Shown one piece after another: positions 9,126-11,692 of a stretch of DNA of 12,423 bases. The position numbers and the translations under genes were made by a program. The notes under the pieces were generated by a model that had not been told where the DNA came from, did not search any database, and saw only the letters and a list, made by a program, of their open reading frames with translations. The stretch spans positions 1 to 12,423 of the forward strand of contig CAYZRF010000036.1 in the NCBI GenBank assembly GCA_964480775.1. The letters run 5' to 3'. Origin of the DNA: an uncultured Nitrososphaerota archaeon. Its GTDB lineage: Archaea > Korarchaeota > Korarchaeia > Korarchaeales > Korarchaeaceae. Position 1 is the first letter of the stretch. Each line of letters begins with the position of its first letter.

Positions 9126-9833
9126 CTATGAAAACTGAGTTTTCGCGTTGATTTTTCTTACTAATAACCTGACAGCTTCCTCTATGTTCTCTCCACTAAG
9201 GGCGCTTGTTTCGATATAACCATCGAAACCAAGTTCCTCAGCTAGCTTCGTTGGATCCACCCCAATGCGGATCCTCAGATCTCTCTTCGTTCCTACAAGG
9301 ACCAATGGGACCCTACCAATGTTGTTCTCTGCTTCTTTTACCCATCCTGGCACATCTTTTATGCTCTGATCATCTACGAGGCTGAAGGCAATGAATCCTC
9401 CAGAACAACCCTTGTAGAATGCTGGTCTCATGAACCCAAACCTCTCTTGACCAGCCATGTCCCATATAACCAGCTTAAACAGCGTTCCGTCTATCACCAT
9501 GTCTTTAGAGTAGAAATCAACACCTATAGTCATCTTATAGCTCTTGTCAAATACTCCTAGAGCGAATCTCCTGCAAAAAGAGGTCTTACCAACGCCTCCA
9601 TTTCCAGAGATGAAGAGTTTGAGTCTTCTAACGTCCTTAAGGATGCTTACCTTTAAGAGAAGATCTGCAGCCTCATCTGGCCCCAATTTCTCTGCTGCCT
9701 CATAGTAGAGGTCCTGAATGACCTTATCAGTGAGTTCATCGCTCTCCTTCAGACCCCTATTGGTCAACCATTTATCAAGGTCTTTCCCAGCATATTTTCT
9801 TAATCTGGGTAGAAAGTCCCCAAGTTTAGGCAT
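9126..9833 (-). CDS. Rab/Ras-like small GTPase with an N-terminal helical extension of about 70 aa
   Basis: G1 GNGGVGKTS; switch I YKMTIGVDF; G3 KLVIWDMAGQERF; G4 LVGTKRDL ([NT]KxD); G5 ETSALSGENIEEA. I prefer ATG 9833 (MPKLGDF...), because the track's GTG at 9842 is part of the SD GGTGG, 5 nt upstream of that ATG. Confidence 0.88.
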   Translation of the reverse strand: MPKLGDFLPRLRKYAGKDLDKWLTNRGLKESDELTDKVIQDLYYEAAEKLGPDEAADLLLKVSILKDVRRLKLFISGNGGVGKTSFCRRFALGVFDKSYKMTIGVDFYSKDMVIDGTLFKLVIWDMAGQERFGFMRPAFYKGCSGGFIAFSLVDDQSIKDVPGWVKEAENNIGRVPLVLVGTKRDLRIRIGVDPTKLAEELGFDGYIETSALSGENIEEAVRLLVRKINAKTQFS

Positions 9834-9944
9834 GATAACCACCGCTTGCCGCCATAAAGGACGACGGCACCTTTGATTTGTTTCCTAGCCTTCTACATTT
9901 GAAGCTTAAAATAAGATCTTTTCCTTTAATGTTCATACCGTAAG

Positions 9945-9960
9945 GAACAAAGCCAAAAAG
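9945..9960 (-). terminator. T-rich tract after the membrane-protein gene
   Basis: The minus strand reads CTTCCTTTTTGGCTTTGTTCC, about 35-50 nt after the stop at 9996. A TTATTTTAAG box (about 9905-9915) follows upstream of the GTPase gene. Confidence 0.2.
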
Positions 9961-9995
9961 GAAGAGCTTTCCCCATCTTTCTTTAGAGAGCATTA

Positions 9996-10799
9996 CTAGT
10001 CATTCTGCAGTTTAACTTTTGATACGATCTTTCTAGCTTGACTGTAATAGAAGAAGGGGAGAAATGCTGAAATGGAGGGATAAATAAGCCTAATTAATGA
10101 GATGAGAAACTTACCTGAGAATATGGGGAGTTCCATTCTTTTAAGCCAAAAAGATACGTCTACAAATACCGTCAGAAAACTTACGATTTGAAAGACGATC
10201 ATGATGCTCCTCAGAAGCCCTTTTGGTAGAGTTAAACTTCCTATAGTCGACAGAGCTAGACACAGTATGTCTAGCAGTATGTGAAGCAGTAGGATTGATG
10301 GTACATCGAAGATATTCCTTACCTCTTGAAAGGGTGGGGCCGTTTTTGCTATAAGCATGTTGAAAAGGAAGAACATCGAGCCCAGAAGGATTAACAACAA
10401 TACCAAGATCTTCTTCCAATCCATTAGAGCGAACCTTGTGGAAAGGACTAAAGTCATTCCTAAGATTAAAGGGGCATAAGAAGTTAGCTCAATTGCCGCT
10501 ATGATAGAGAGGAGTTTCCAAGCTGGCTTAGAGAGCAGTAAAAGCTTTGGTATTCCAATGAGGAGAAGGTAAATGCCAAAGAGAAGGCAATACTTTCTAG
10601 CTAAGGACTTAGGTCTGTGAAGTTTTGAGGATGAGAACCAAGCGACAGCTCCTATTATCACAAGAGAAGGTACTATTAGCTCGGGATAAGGGTATCTCAC
10701 GATCTTCCTTGTAATAAGGGTGATTGTGAGGAGGGATGTGAATAGGCTCGATGTCAATATCAGGCTGTAGTCGGCCAGTGAAAGAGCAGGCTTTTCCAT
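9996..10799 (-). CDS. Polytopic integral membrane protein of unknown family (about 7-8 hydrophobic spans by eye)
   Basis: 267-aa ORF, very Leu/Ile/Phe-rich, with short basic loops (RKIVRYP, HRPKSLARK, MDWKK, WLKRM). ATG 10799 lies 8 nt after the TAG of the upstream Roadblock-like gene. I recognised no catalytic or transporter motif. Confidence 0.7.
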   Translation of the reverse strand: MEKPALSLADYSLILTSSLFTSLLTITLITRKIVRYPYPELIVPSLVIIGAVAWFSSSKLHRPKSLARKYCLLFGIYLLLIGIPKLLLLSKPAWKLLSIIAAIELTSYAPLILGMTLVLSTRFALMDWKKILVLLLILLGSMFFLFNMLIAKTAPPFQEVRNIFDVPSILLLHILLDILCLALSTIGSLTLPKGLLRSIMIVFQIVSFLTVFVDVSFWLKRMELPIFSGKFLISLIRLIYPSISAFLPFFYYSQARKIVSKVKLQND

Positions 10800-10807
10800 G
10801 AACGATC

Positions 10808-11692
10808 CTATATCTGCGACTCGACTTTTTCAAAAAGCTTTTTCAAAGCCTCCTTAAGTTCCATTCCCTTCCCTCTTAAGTAGTCCAAATCCCTTCTCAA
10901 TAGCCTTTCTCCGTCCTCATACAGCAGCACGTATAAGTTCAACGTTCGTTCGTATAGATCCTGCAGCTCTGCAGGCACATAGAATGGCGTCTCTTGTTTT
11001 TCAGATGAGATAATTTCTCTTAGATCTTTTATCCTCTCGAACAAAACATCCAAGTCAGCTTCTTCTTCATTTATTCCTAGTAAGAGAAGTCCGTTCCCTA
11101 CTATCGCTACTAGAACTGGAGCTATTTCCGATTCAATCCTGAGAATGGCATCTTTCCTACGCAAACCTCTAGATCGAGCTATTTCTTTATAGACTCTCTC
11201 ACAAACCTCCCTTATCCTCTCTTCACTGGCCTGGGTTCTGATACTCCACTCACTATCAACATCTCGATAGGCTATGAATTCAATGCCTAACGCTCCACTG
11301 AAATAATAGGGAACAAATTCCTTTTGGCCAACATAACTCAAGACCGTCGCGTCTATCTCTTTCTTAAACCCTCTAAACTTTCCTTTTTCACTTTCATGGA
11401 TAGCTAAGAATTTGTTTGAGATACCTTCGCATATGGCCTCAGCGGTCTCTATCTTCACATCATTGTCAGAAAAGACTATGAATAAGAGGTCTCTTGCCCT
11501 TTTGAATGCGAGATACTGGGACCCTAACATAACTTTTCCAACATCAGTTTTTCCAATCTGTTCCATTAACGGTGTAATCAAATTCACTATGCTAGCTGTG
11601 GCTTCTATCTGCTCAGGCGGCAGCGATCCATAGCTTCTTCTGATTATCACCATGCCTGCATTGTTTGTTATTATCACGTCCCTAACTGGCAA
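10808..11692 (-). CDS. Protein with two tandem Roadblock/LC7 (MglB/longin-like) domains and a helical C-terminal tail
   Basis: Residues about 3-100 are VRDVIITNNAGMVIIRRSYGSL..EQIEATASIVNLITPLMEQIG..VGKVMLGSQYLAFKRARDLLFIVFSDNDVKIETAE. This fits the Roadblock pattern: two strands, a long helix, two strands, then a C-terminal helix. Residues about 125-225 repeat the pattern: IEFIAYRDVDSEWSIRT..ERIREVCERVYKEIARS..AILRIESEIAPVLVAIVGNGLLLLGINEEEADLDVLFERI. TTG start preceded by GGTGAT. The assignment is by pattern only. Confidence 0.65.
   Translation of the reverse strand: MPVRDVIITNNAGMVIIRRSYGSLPPEQIEATASIVNLITPLMEQIGKTDVGKVMLGSQYLAFKRARDLLFIVFSDNDVKIETAEAICEGISNKFLAIHESEKGKFRGFKKEIDATVLSYVGQKEFVPYYFSGALGIEFIAYRDVDSEWSIRTQASEERIREVCERVYKEIARSRGLRRKDAILRIESEIAPVLVAIVGNGLLLLGINEEEADLDVLFERIKDLREIISSEKQETPFYVPAELQDLYERTLNLYVLLYEDGERLLRRDLDYLRGKGMELKEALKKLFEKVESQI

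What the first reader, a model, noticed from the sequence alone, without database searches (positions are those of the whole stretch)
9126..9842. GTPase carries Rab-family signature motifs, an N-terminal extension of about 70 aa, and no prenylation site
The G domain goes beyond the generic G1-G5 motifs and matches Rab family motifs:
- IGVDF (RabF1)
- KLVIWDMAGQERF (cf. KLQIWDTAGQERF, RabF2 plus G3, with the catalytic Gln retained)
- FYKGC (cf. YYRGA)
- ETSALSGENIEEA (cf. ETSAKTGxNVEEAF)

Three features are unusual:
- G4 is TKRD rather than NKxD.
- The C-terminus (…RKINAKTQFS) lacks any Cys.
- A predicted helical N-terminal extension (MPKLGDFLPRLRKYAGKDLDKWLTNRGLKESDELTDKVIQDLYYEAAEKLGPDEAADLLLKV) precedes G1. 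It could be the docking element for the neighbouring proteins.
Basis: partly seen in the sequence, partly recalled or inferred. Interest (0 to 1): 0.6.

Follow-up and report, generated by a model that had tools for sequence, protein, structure and literature searches.

The report
Korarchaeal Rab-like GTPase with novel N-domain
This gene encodes an intact Rab-like molecular-switch GTPase from an uncultured hot-vent archaeon outside the Asgard group; it carries a unique four-helix N-terminal domain and always sits beside a longin-type regulator gene and a membrane-protein gene, so its likely partners can be read from the gene order and tested.

Summary
The minus-strand ORF 9126-9842 (true start most likely the ATG at 9833) encodes a 235-aa Ras-superfamily GTPase with all five G boxes, every quoted motif, a ~70-aa N-terminal extension and no C-terminal Cys.

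The Rab reading is partly supported.
- The P-loop to switch II half hits only Rabs in the PDB.
- A family profile scores eukaryotic Rabs 92-117 bits against 76-81 for plant Rho (Rop).
- Only RabF1 and RabF2 hold. RabF3 and RabF4 are partial, and RabF5 is absent (IAFSLV, Rho-like).
- TKxD is normal in Rho/Rop, and all archaeal Rab-likes lack the Cys.
- Deep phylogeny is unresolved.

The special feature is the extension. It is a confidently predicted four-helix domain with no credible sequence or fold relative outside this family.

The family occurs in two of seven Korarchaeia genera. The window's genome belongs to GTDB genus QMVU01. The gene always lies in an operon with a longin-domain protein and a polytopic membrane protein, and the whole three-gene set is duplicated in this genome.

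Most likely it is a membrane-associated switch regulated by the longin protein, with the N-domain as a partner-specificity module. That role is inferred, not shown.

The scan had already found the paralogous operon on another contig of this genome.

The parts
9126..9833 (-). CDS of the 235-aa N-extended Rab-like GTPase (ATG start; the listed ORF begins 9 nt upstream at a GTG, 9842)
   Evidence: ORF list; homologues start at MPKL or a near variant; Pfam Ras 6.5e-38
9839..9843 (-). GGTGG Shine-Dalgarno-like box 5 nt upstream of the ATG
   Evidence: sequence read
9627..9833 (-). N-terminal extension, residues 1-69: predicted four-helix domain specific to this family
   Evidence: AF2 pLDDT 81-94 in the full-length model and 82 alone, pTM 0.66. 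A profile search of 1.84e9 proteins finds only family members credibly. No Pfam, Foldseek or Atlas match. Best VIA Z 5.4, within noise
9129..9626 (-). Ras-type G domain, residues 70-235
   Evidence: Pfam Ras 75-232 of the 238-aa frame; PDB Rab hits; Foldseek Rab/Rho/Ras
9582..9605 (-). G1 P-loop GNGGVGKT
9513..9530 (-). Switch I Thr plus RabF1 (TIGVDF)
9438..9476 (-). RabF2 plus G3 with catalytic Gln (KLVIWDMAGQERF)
9375..9419 (-). FYKGC (partial RabF4) and beta4 IAFSLV (RabF5 position; Rho/Rop-like, not Rab-like)
9279..9290 (-). G4 TKRD (T, K and D invariant in the family; also found in plant Rop)
9198..9209 (-). G5 TSAL
9996..10799 (-). Upstream operon gene: 267-aa polytopic membrane protein (about 8 hydrophobic spans), an orphan
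   Evidence: hydropathy; 3 proteins in 5.8e9; conserved position in the paralogous and orthologous loci
10808..11692 (-). First operon gene: 294-aa two-domain protein with a longin-like N-terminal domain
   Evidence: conserved upstream of the GTPase. Weak Longin and Fuz_longin_1 Pfam hits in the paralogue and in the orthologues of the second genus. Atlas lead. The second domain was not tested here

Best explanation
The gene encodes a functional GTP/GDP switch of the archaeal Rab-like type. Its switch I, interswitch and switch II surface is the part that Rab GEFs, GAPs and effectors read, and it is Rab-like. The rest of the G domain is generic Ras-superfamily, with local Rho-like traits.

It belongs to a small family restricted to two genera of Korarchaeia. 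A unique N-terminal four-helix domain defines the family. The gene is obligately co-encoded with a longin-domain protein and a polytopic membrane protein.

Proposed mechanism:
- The GTPase has no lipid anchor, so it acts at the cell membrane through protein contacts.
- The longin (or longin plus second domain) protein is its GEF or GAP platform, as longin and Roadblock proteins are for Rab, Rag and MglA GTPases.
- The membrane protein is the anchor, sensor or effector.
- The N-terminal domain is the module that ties the GTPase to its own partners and keeps the two paralogous modules in this genome separate.

Shown here: intact G motifs, Rab-biased similarity, the fold prediction and uniqueness of the N-domain, operon conservation, and duplication of the whole triad.

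Inferred: GTPase activity, the regulator role of the longin protein, membrane localisation, and the docking or specificity role of the N-domain.
For: - Intact G1-G5 and catalytic Gln.
- Pfam Ras 6.5e-38.
- The top 60 PDB hits are all Rab or Thor-Rab, and the N-half of the G domain hits only Rabs.
- The family HMM favours Rabs over Rops by about 30 bits.
- The family is monophyletic (SH-aLRT 99) and sits within an Asgard-dominated set.
- The N-domain is confidently folded and has no relatives elsewhere.
- The three-gene set is present twice in this genome and in all 5 genomes of the genus.
- The second genus has membrane protein, 146-aa longin and GTPase genes overlapping by 14-22 nt, in a different order.
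- Three orthologues of the second-genus longin protein hit Pfam Fuz_longin_1 (Mon1/Fuz/HPS1) at E 3e-4 to 6e-3 over nearly the whole model.
- Between the two paralogous modules the G domain is 64% identical. The N-domain is only 34% identical, close to the partners (membrane protein 30%, longin protein 33%).
- No residue corresponds to the intrinsic Arg finger: Met aligns with Thor-Rab R37 (with PMC10933270). A GAP is therefore expected.
- No prenyltransferase alpha repeats in the genome.
Against:
- The faster divergence of the N-domain may only reflect weaker constraint.
- The membrane proteins of the two genera show no detectable homology (hhalign probability 0.1%). If the N-domain binds the membrane protein, that interface is not conserved.
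- All longin hits are below Pfam's gathering cut-off.
- In the window copy a 162-nt spacer with a TATA-like box separates the GTPase gene from the membrane-protein gene, so co-transcription is less certain here than in the paralogue.
- pTM 0.75 for the full-length model suggests the N-domain packs on the G domain. That would fit an intramolecular role equally well.
Confidence: 0.6

Rival explanations
1. The N-terminal four-helix domain is an intramolecular regulatory or oligomerisation module. It packs on the G domain and gates nucleotide state or dimerisation, as the N domain does in SRP54/FtsY/FlhF NG GTPases. It is not a docking site for the operon partners.
For: - The full-length AF2 model has pTM 0.75 with a high-confidence N-domain, which suggests a fixed orientation on the G domain.
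- The layout of an N-terminal helical bundle plus a TKxD G4 is reminiscent of SRP-type GTPases. FlhF and crenarchaeal SRP54 appear in the fold list, though only at Z 3.5-4.1.
- The membrane partner is not conserved between genera, while the N-domain is.
Against: - The fold matches are at noise level.
- The G domain is Ras-type, not SIMIBI.
- The N-domain diverges in step with the partner proteins rather than with the G domain.
- No interface data are available.
Confidence: 0.22
2. The extension is a membrane-binding element (an amphipathic helix, Arf/Sar-like) that replaces prenylation.
For: The first helix (LGDFLPRLRKYA) is moderately amphipathic, with muH 0.59. There is no lipid-anchor site and no prenyltransferase.
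Against: - The region is predicted as a compact four-helix domain with pLDDT above 80 rather than a free helix.
- Its net charge is 0 (14 K+R, 14 D+E).
- There is no Gly2 for myristoylation.
- The first helix is poorly conserved between the two genera.
Confidence: 0.08
3. It is a generic prokaryotic Ras-like GTPase (Rup, MglA or Roc type) whose Rab motifs are coincidental, and the gene neighbourhood is fortuitous.
For: - Only 2 of 5 RabF motifs are kept.
- The deep phylogeny is unresolved.
- Pfam Roc also hits at 9.9e-25.
Against: - G3 is D-x-A-G-Q, not the MglA type. The genome's own MglA-like GTPases form a distant outgroup (branch 2.0, SH-aLRT 99).
- The protein has no LRR or COR domains.
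- The switch-region half hits only Rabs.
- The neighbourhood is conserved across two genera and two paralogues.
- The closest outside relative, a Borrarchaeum GTPase (40% identity), is also followed by a longin-like gene.
Confidence: 0.07

Closest known systems
Asgard archaeal Rab-like GTPases, e.g. Thor-Rab (PDB 7EZB; PMC10933270) and the Lokiarchaeum Rab-like set (PMC4915359)
   Same: - Thor-Rab is the best PDB hit (2.7e-27).
- About 35-45% identity to Asgard GTPases.
- RabF1 and RabF2 are conserved, the C-terminus is short with no Cys, and the catalytic Gln is kept.
- The family nests among Asgard sequences in trees.
   Different: - The host is Korarchaeia, not Asgard.
- It has a 70-aa four-helix N-domain that none of the Asgard relatives sampled carry.
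- G4 is TKxD rather than NKxD, and the RabF5 position is AFSLV rather than (L/V)VYD(I/V)T.
- It has Met where Thor-Rab has its Arg37.
Eukaryotic Rab family (Rab1/Ypt1, Rab5, Rab7, Rab23 and others)
   Same: Switch I, interswitch and switch II motifs (IGVDF, KLxIWDxAGQERF). About 31-36% identity over the G domain. The P-loop to switch II half hits Rabs exclusively.
   Different: - No hypervariable C-terminal tail or prenylatable Cys.
- RabF3 and RabF5 are not met.
- It has an N-terminal domain.
- There is no REP/GGTase context.
- Placement with eukaryotic Rabs is neither supported nor rejected (AU p 0.24).
Tri-longin-domain Rab GEFs with their Rabs (Mon1-Ccz1/Rab7, Fuzzy-Inturned, HPS1-HPS4)
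   Same: A Rab-like GTPase is genetically coupled to a protein whose only Pfam signal is the first longin domain of FUZ/MON1/HPS1. Action at a membrane is expected.
   Different: - The partner has one longin domain (second genus), or a longin domain plus a second domain (this genus), not three.
- The hits are below Pfam's cut-off.
- GEF activity is untested.
- The module also includes an integral membrane protein.
MglA/MglB (Ras-like GTPase with a Roadblock GAP) of bacteria and archaea
   Same: A small GTPase encoded next to a longin/Roadblock-fold regulator. It is a prokaryotic polarity-type switch without a lipid anchor.
   Different: The G3 motif and switch regions are Rab-type, not MglA-type. 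The genome has separate MglA-like genes that are a distant outgroup.
Candidatus Borrarchaeum weybense locus (L006): 172-aa GTPase followed by a 401-aa protein with a longin-like N-terminus, flanked by KaiC-like ATPases
   Same: It is the closest non-family GTPase (40% identity, 6e-42) and shares the derived FxFMRPxxYxGxSGGF stretch. The next gene's N-terminus aligns with the korarchaeal longin proteins (pairwise E 3e-6; co-linear alignment).
   Different: It has no N-terminal domain, G4 is NKID, the RabF5 position reads LVYDVT, there is no membrane-protein gene, and the context is KaiC-like.
Rho/Rop family
   Same: G4 TKxD and the beta4 AFSL motif. Plant Rac/Rop structures rank next to Rab5 for the alpha2-to-G4 segment.
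   Different: There is no Rho insert: 23 residues separate TKRD from TSAL, and the region aligns to Rab1B with only 1-3-residue gaps. The switch regions are not Rho-like (VFDNF and DTAGQEDY in Rop). The family HMM scores Rops about 30 bits lower.

Membership tests
Ras superfamily small GTPase (Pfam PF00071) | Score above the curated cut-off over the full domain | tested here: met
   130.3 bits against a cut-off of 21.6, profile positions 1-161 of 162; TIGR00231 at 65.4 bits against 42.5
Ras superfamily small GTPase (Pfam PF00071) | G1-G5 nucleotide-binding motifs and catalytic Gln intact | tested here: met
   GNGGVGKT, switch I Thr, DMAGQ, TKRD, TSAL. The T, K and D of G4 are invariant in the family
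Eukaryotic Rab family (RabF motifs as listed in PMC8776137 and used in PMC4915359) | RabF1 IGVDF | tested here: met
   IGVDF in 9 of 11 family rows
Eukaryotic Rab family (RabF motifs as listed in PMC8776137 and used in PMC4915359) | RabF2 KLQIW followed by DTAGQE | tested here: met
   KLVIW + DMAGQE here; [KR]L[VL]IW + D[LM]AGQE across the family
Eukaryotic Rab family (RabF motifs as listed in PMC8776137 and used in PMC4915359) | RabF3 RFRSIT | tested here: not met
   RFGFMR, 2 of 6 identical
Eukaryotic Rab family (RabF motifs as listed in PMC8776137 and used in PMC4915359) | RabF4 YYRGA | tested here: inconclusive
   FYKGC: 2 identical and 2 conservative. Asgard Rab-likes mostly have FY[KR]GA
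Eukaryotic Rab family (RabF motifs as listed in PMC8776137 and used in PMC4915359) | RabF5 LVYDIT | tested here: not met
   IAFSLV, 0 of 6. Plant Rop has LAFSLL at this position
Eukaryotic Rab family (RabF motifs as listed in PMC8776137 and used in PMC4915359) | C-terminal prenylatable Cys motif | tested here: not met
   No Cys in the last 90 residues; the protein ends ...AKTQFS. No PPTA repeats in the genome, which is 90% complete
Eukaryotic Rab family (RabF motifs as listed in PMC8776137 and used in PMC4915359) | More similar to Rab than to other Ras-superfamily families | tested here: met
   The top 60 PDB hits are all Rab or Thor-Rab. The family HMM scores Rabs 92-117 bits and Rops 76-81 bits. 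Ras, Ran and Arf references could not be brought in for a full test
Eukaryotic Rab family (RabF motifs as listed in PMC8776137 and used in PMC4915359) | Phylogenetic placement with eukaryotic Rabs | tested here: inconclusive
   In the free trees the eukaryotic Rabs lie outside the archaeal group (SH-aLRT 80-81). The AU test does not reject family+Rab (p 0.24) or family+Rop (p 0.42)
Archaeal Rab-like GTPases (sensu Surkont and Pereira-Leal 2016; Thor-Rab) | RabF1/RabF2 conserved, short C-terminus without Cys, nearest relatives are Asgard Rab-like proteins | tested here: met
   criteria from PMC4915359
Archaeal Rab-like GTPases (sensu Surkont and Pereira-Leal 2016; Thor-Rab) | Single-domain architecture of about 165-200 aa | tested here: not met
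   235 aa with a separate 70-aa four-helix N-domain. Multidomain forms are, however, reported among Asgard GTPases
Rho/Rop family | Rho insert helix between G4 and G5 | tested here: not met
   23 residues separate TKRD from TSAL, and the region aligns to Rab1B and Thor-Rab with only 1-3-residue gaps. A full-length Rop (P0129) has about 36 residues there
MglA family | MglA-type G3 (no Asp; TxGQ or PGQ) | tested here: not met
   DMAGQ here. The genome's own MglA-like proteins (GTPGQ, GTTGQ) are a distant outgroup
MglA family | Intrinsic Arg finger in switch I | tested here: not met
   Met aligns with Thor-Rab R37, the residue PMC10933270 equates with MglA R53
Arf/Sar family | N-terminal amphipathic helix with Gly2 and an Arf-type interswitch | tested here: not met
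   The protein starts MPKL. The extension is a folded four-helix domain. Pfam Arf does not pass for this protein
SRP-type NG-domain GTPases (SRP54, FtsY, FlhF) | N-terminal four-helix bundle homologous to the SRP N domain, plus a SIMIBI-class G domain | tested here: inconclusive
   FlhF and SRP54 appear only at Z 3.5-4.1, within noise. The G domain is Ras-type by Pfam. The resemblance is one of layout only

The most novel reading that the evidence does not exclude
Two Korarchaeia genera carry a self-contained three-gene Rab-like switch module: a longin-type regulator, an integral membrane protein, and a GTPase. The module is shared with or acquired from Asgard archaea, since Borrarchaeum has the GTPase and longin genes adjacent. 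In it, a previously unseen four-helix N-domain does the job that prenylation plus GDI/REP does in eukaryotes: it recruits the GTPase to its membrane partner and sets pairing specificity. This would be a minimal, tractable prokaryotic counterpart of a Rab/longin-GEF system outside Asgard.
Probability: 0.25. Interest if true: 0.75.

Novelty: new variant of a known kind. Interest (0 to 1): 0.55.

Why it matters
Rab-like GTPases and longin or Roadblock regulators are central to arguments about how eukaryotic membrane trafficking arose. In Asgard genomes they occur in dozens of copies, with partners that cannot be assigned.

Here a non-Asgard archaeon with a 1.8-Mb genome has only two such GTPases. 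Each is hard-wired by gene order to one longin-type protein and one membrane protein. That makes the GTPase-regulator pairing, and the way a Rab-like switch reaches a membrane without a lipid anchor, directly testable with three recombinant proteins.

The family-specific N-domain is a fold with no detectable relatives, attached to a well-understood switch.

The distribution is also informative. The family is found in two of seven Korarchaeia genera, and its nearest relative is in Borrarchaeum. This bears on how far 'eukaryotic signature' GTPase modules have moved between archaeal lineages.

Tried and rejected
- **Relatives of the N-domain.** None of the following gave a credible match:
  - Pfam at E up to 1: only a chance Gag_p17 hit at E 0.07.
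  - A profile search of 1.84e9 representative proteins: 4 hits. Only the family member P0003 is credible. P0121 is a repeat protein sharing a DD..L..YE.A..G.D.A pattern.
  - Foldseek against the PDB: nothing below E 3.
  - VIA-align wide: best Z 5.4 to Af1502, within the stated noise range.
  - ESM Atlas: no usable hit.
- **Fold of the G domain.** Foldseek puts Rab38, RhoA, Rab32, Rab1b and KRAS all near E 1e-12 to 1e-13. The model rests on a shallow 11-sequence alignment and has rmsd above 4 A. Structure therefore does not discriminate between families.
- **Full phylogeny with Ras, Ran and Arf.** Not possible: no route to those reference sequences without typing them. Only eukaryotic Rabs and plant Rops could be brought in. 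The sister group of the family changes with taxon sampling, from a small Loki clade (91) to Borrarchaeum (85). The careful tree search did not finish within the time limit, so all trees are quick trees.
- **Longin protein against the PDB.** A sequence-profile search gave nothing. hhalign of the family profile against the Borrarchaeum 401-aa protein was not significant, although pairwise BLAST with the shorter second-genus longin protein was.
- **Membrane proteins of the two genera.** No detectable homology.
- **CaaX reading of the second-genus C-termini.** Rejected. The endings are SACVNI, SACLR and SALPEI. The Cys is not conserved and the motif is not canonical.
- **Literature.** No paper found on Rab-like GTPases in Korarchaeia. 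The 2026 Korarchaeota genomics paper does not mention GTPases.
Full report
**What is there**

The finding's coordinates hold a minus-strand ORF, 9126-9842. All 7 full-length homologues begin at MPKL or a near variant. A GGTGG box that contains the listed GTG start lies 5 nt upstream of the ATG at 9833. The CDS is therefore most likely 9126-9833, 235 aa.

The protein matches Pfam Ras at 6.5e-38. Its best solved-structure matches are Thorarchaeota Rab (7EZB, 2.7e-27) and Rab1B, and all 60 listed hits are Rabs.

**How Rab-like is it**

I scored the five RabF motifs (as listed in PMC8776137, and used for archaea in PMC4915359) on an alignment of the family, its relatives and eukaryotic references.

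| Motif | Rab consensus | This family | Result |
|---|---|---|---|
| RabF1 | IGVDF | IGVDF | kept |
| RabF2 + G3 | KLQIW + DTAGQE | [KR]L[VL]IW + D[LM]AGQE | kept |
| RabF3 | RFRSIT | RFG[FLI]MR | 2 of 6 |
| RabF4 | YYRGA | FY[KR]G[SC] | about 2 of 5 |
| RabF5 | LVYDIT | [IV]AFSLV | 0 of 6 |

The last stretch and the invariant TKxD G4 match a plant Rop that happened to be in the hit list (LAFSLL, TKLD).

Searching the PDB with halves of the G domain shows the same mosaic:
- The P-loop to switch II half hits only Rabs.
- The alpha2-to-G4 half hits Rab5a first, then plant Rac/Rop proteins, Rab21, Rab11 and Rac1.

There is no Rho insert: 23 residues separate G4 from G5, aligned to Rab1B with only 1-3-residue gaps. 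A profile of the family G domain scores eukaryotic Rabs at 92-117 bits and full-length Rops at 76-81 bits.

So the Rab label is justified for the switch surfaces and for overall similarity, but not for the whole set of Rab family motifs. TKxD is ordinary in Rho/Rop. Lack of a prenylation Cys is the rule for archaeal Rab-likes. The genome also shows no prenyltransferase alpha repeats.

**Phylogeny**

- The family is monophyletic (SH-aLRT 99) on a long stem. It has two subclades that correspond to the two paralogues in this genome.
- It sits within an Asgard-dominated set of Rab-like GTPases. Eukaryotic Rabs form a separate group.
- Its sister changes with sampling: a small Loki clade in one tree, Borrarchaeum in another.
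- AU tests reject neither family+Rab (p 0.24) nor family+Rop (p 0.42).
- The deep position is unresolved, as reported before for archaeal Rab-likes (PMC4915359).

**Host and distribution**

- The closest homologues (55-58% identity, same architecture) come from MAGs labelled Thermoproteota, including isolate Kor4.
- The whole-genome search places QMVU01000111.1 (locus L003 = G036) in the same genus as the window's genome. PMC10667645 names QMVU01 as a GTDB genus of class Korarchaeia.
- Of 40 species genomes in 7 genera of that class, the family is found in all 5 genomes of this genus and in 4 of 5 of a second genus. It is found in none of the other 30 genomes at E 1e-40 or better.
- In 5.8e9 clustered proteins only about ten clusters share the architecture.

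**The N-terminal extension**

- It aligns co-linearly between the two genera.
- AlphaFold2 predicts four helices with pLDDT 81-94 in the full-length model and a mean of 82 with pTM 0.66 when folded alone.
- A profile of it searched against 1.84e9 representative proteins finds only a family member credibly.
- Pfam, Foldseek and the ESM Atlas give nothing, and the best VIA-align Z is 5.4, within noise.
- It carries no net charge. Its first helix is only moderately amphipathic.

**Surroundings**

Upstream on the same strand lie a 294-aa protein (10808-11692) and a 267-aa protein with about eight hydrophobic spans (9996-10799).
- The same three genes, in the same order, occur a second time in this genome on another contig and in the orthologous loci of the genus.
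- In the second genus the operon reads membrane protein, then a 146-aa protein, then the GTPase, with 14-22 nt gene overlaps.
- The 146-aa protein aligns with the N-terminal domain of the 294-aa protein.
- Three orthologues of it hit Pfam Fuz_longin_1 (first longin domain of FUZ, MON1 and HPS1) at E 3e-4 to 6e-3 over nearly the whole model. This is below the gathering cut-off but consistent. The paralogue of the 294-aa protein weakly hits Longin.
- The membrane protein is an orphan, with three proteins in 5.8e9. It has no detectable homology to the membrane protein of the second genus.
- The closest GTPase outside the family is from Candidatus Borrarchaeum weybense (40% identity). It shares a derived switch II/alpha2 stretch. 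It is followed by a gene whose N-terminus aligns with the korarchaeal longin proteins. This hints that the GTPase-longin pair is older than the N-domain.

**Mechanism**

The sequence shows a competent switch: P-loop, switch I Thr, catalytic Gln and guanine-specificity motifs. It has no intrinsic Arg finger, since Met aligns with Thor-Rab R37. A GAP and a GEF are therefore expected.

It is established that longin and Roadblock folds are the platforms that regulate Rab, Rag and MglA GTPases (PMC3747258; PMC10933270). From that and the conserved operon, I infer three roles:
- The longin protein is the cognate regulator.
- The membrane protein is the anchor or effector.
- The N-domain is the family-specific adaptor.

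One quantitative observation fits a specificity role. Between the two paralogous modules the G domain is 64% identical. The N-domain is only 34% identical, like the partners at 30-33%. Weaker constraint could explain this equally well. An intramolecular regulatory role remains a serious rival.

**Relation to earlier notes of this scan**

The paralogous operon on another contig was already followed up and read as a korarchaeal longin, membrane protein and Rab-like GTPase operon. I used that as a lead. My own tests reached the same operon picture independently. They add:
- the mosaic Rab/Rho character of the G domain;
- the uniqueness of the N-domain;
- the distribution within the class;
- the variant operon in the second genus;
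- the Borrarchaeum link.

I did not test the fold of the second domain of the 294-aa protein.

**Verdict**

This is a real and intact gene. It is a new variant of a known kind: an archaeal Rab-like GTPase in a non-Asgard host, with a novel N-domain and a fixed partner set. Interest is moderate to good because it offers a small, testable GTPase-regulator-membrane module.

Noticed in passing
L001:5900-6160 (= G039:C30), compared with window 9560-10320: In the orthologous locus of a co-assembled MAG, about 560 bp are missing. The membrane-protein gene (after ...LPKA) runs directly, out of frame, into the GTPase gene at FISGNGG. This removes the membrane protein's C-terminus and the whole N-domain. 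It is either a real deletion or a co-assembly artefact.
   Followed up: partly
L081:6177-6884 (G000:C3), and L002, L004: The paralogous GTPase subclade has GNPRVGKT in the P-loop, with Pro and Arg at the positions of Ras G12 and G13. The window copy has Ras-like GG. This may mean the two paralogues differ in intrinsic or GAP-stimulated hydrolysis.
   Followed up: no
L006:5176-8574 (Candidatus Borrarchaeum weybense): The gene order is KaiC-like ATPase, 172-aa Rab-like GTPase, 401-aa protein with a longin-like N-terminus, then a second KaiC-like ATPase. Response-regulator and histidine-kinase genes lie upstream. It is a different wiring of the closest outside GTPase.
   Followed up: partly
window 9843-9995: A 162-nt spacer separates the membrane-protein gene from the GTPase gene. 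In the paralogue these genes overlap by 17 nt. The spacer has a TATA-like ATTTTAAG about 70 nt upstream of the ATG, and a 55-codon ORF (9826-9993) that looks non-coding. The window copy may have gained its own promoter.
   Followed up: no
P0121 (327 aa, metagenomic): This protein is built of roughly 57-aa acidic helical repeats. It matches the middle of the N-domain profile (E 6e-7 summed over three repeats). The match is probably a shared helical pattern rather than homology.
   Followed up: partly
L093-L095, L088 (second Korarchaeia genus): Three of four orthologues end in a Cys three or four residues from the C-terminus (SACVNI, SACLR), and the fourth does not (SALPEI). This is not a canonical CaaX box and it is not conserved.
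   Followed up: yes
L004:5596-6291 (= L085, G039:C34): The paralogue-B GTPase of the co-assembled MAG has an interrupted N-domain. The open frame starts at about residue 39, while tblastn matches from residue 12. This suggests a frameshift or an assembly error.
   Followed up: no
G000:C1:90614-91153, C22:9238-9696, C3:38077-38418: The same genome also encodes three MglA-like GTPases (GTPGQ or GTTGQ at G3). They are distant from the Rab-like pair.
   Followed up: partly
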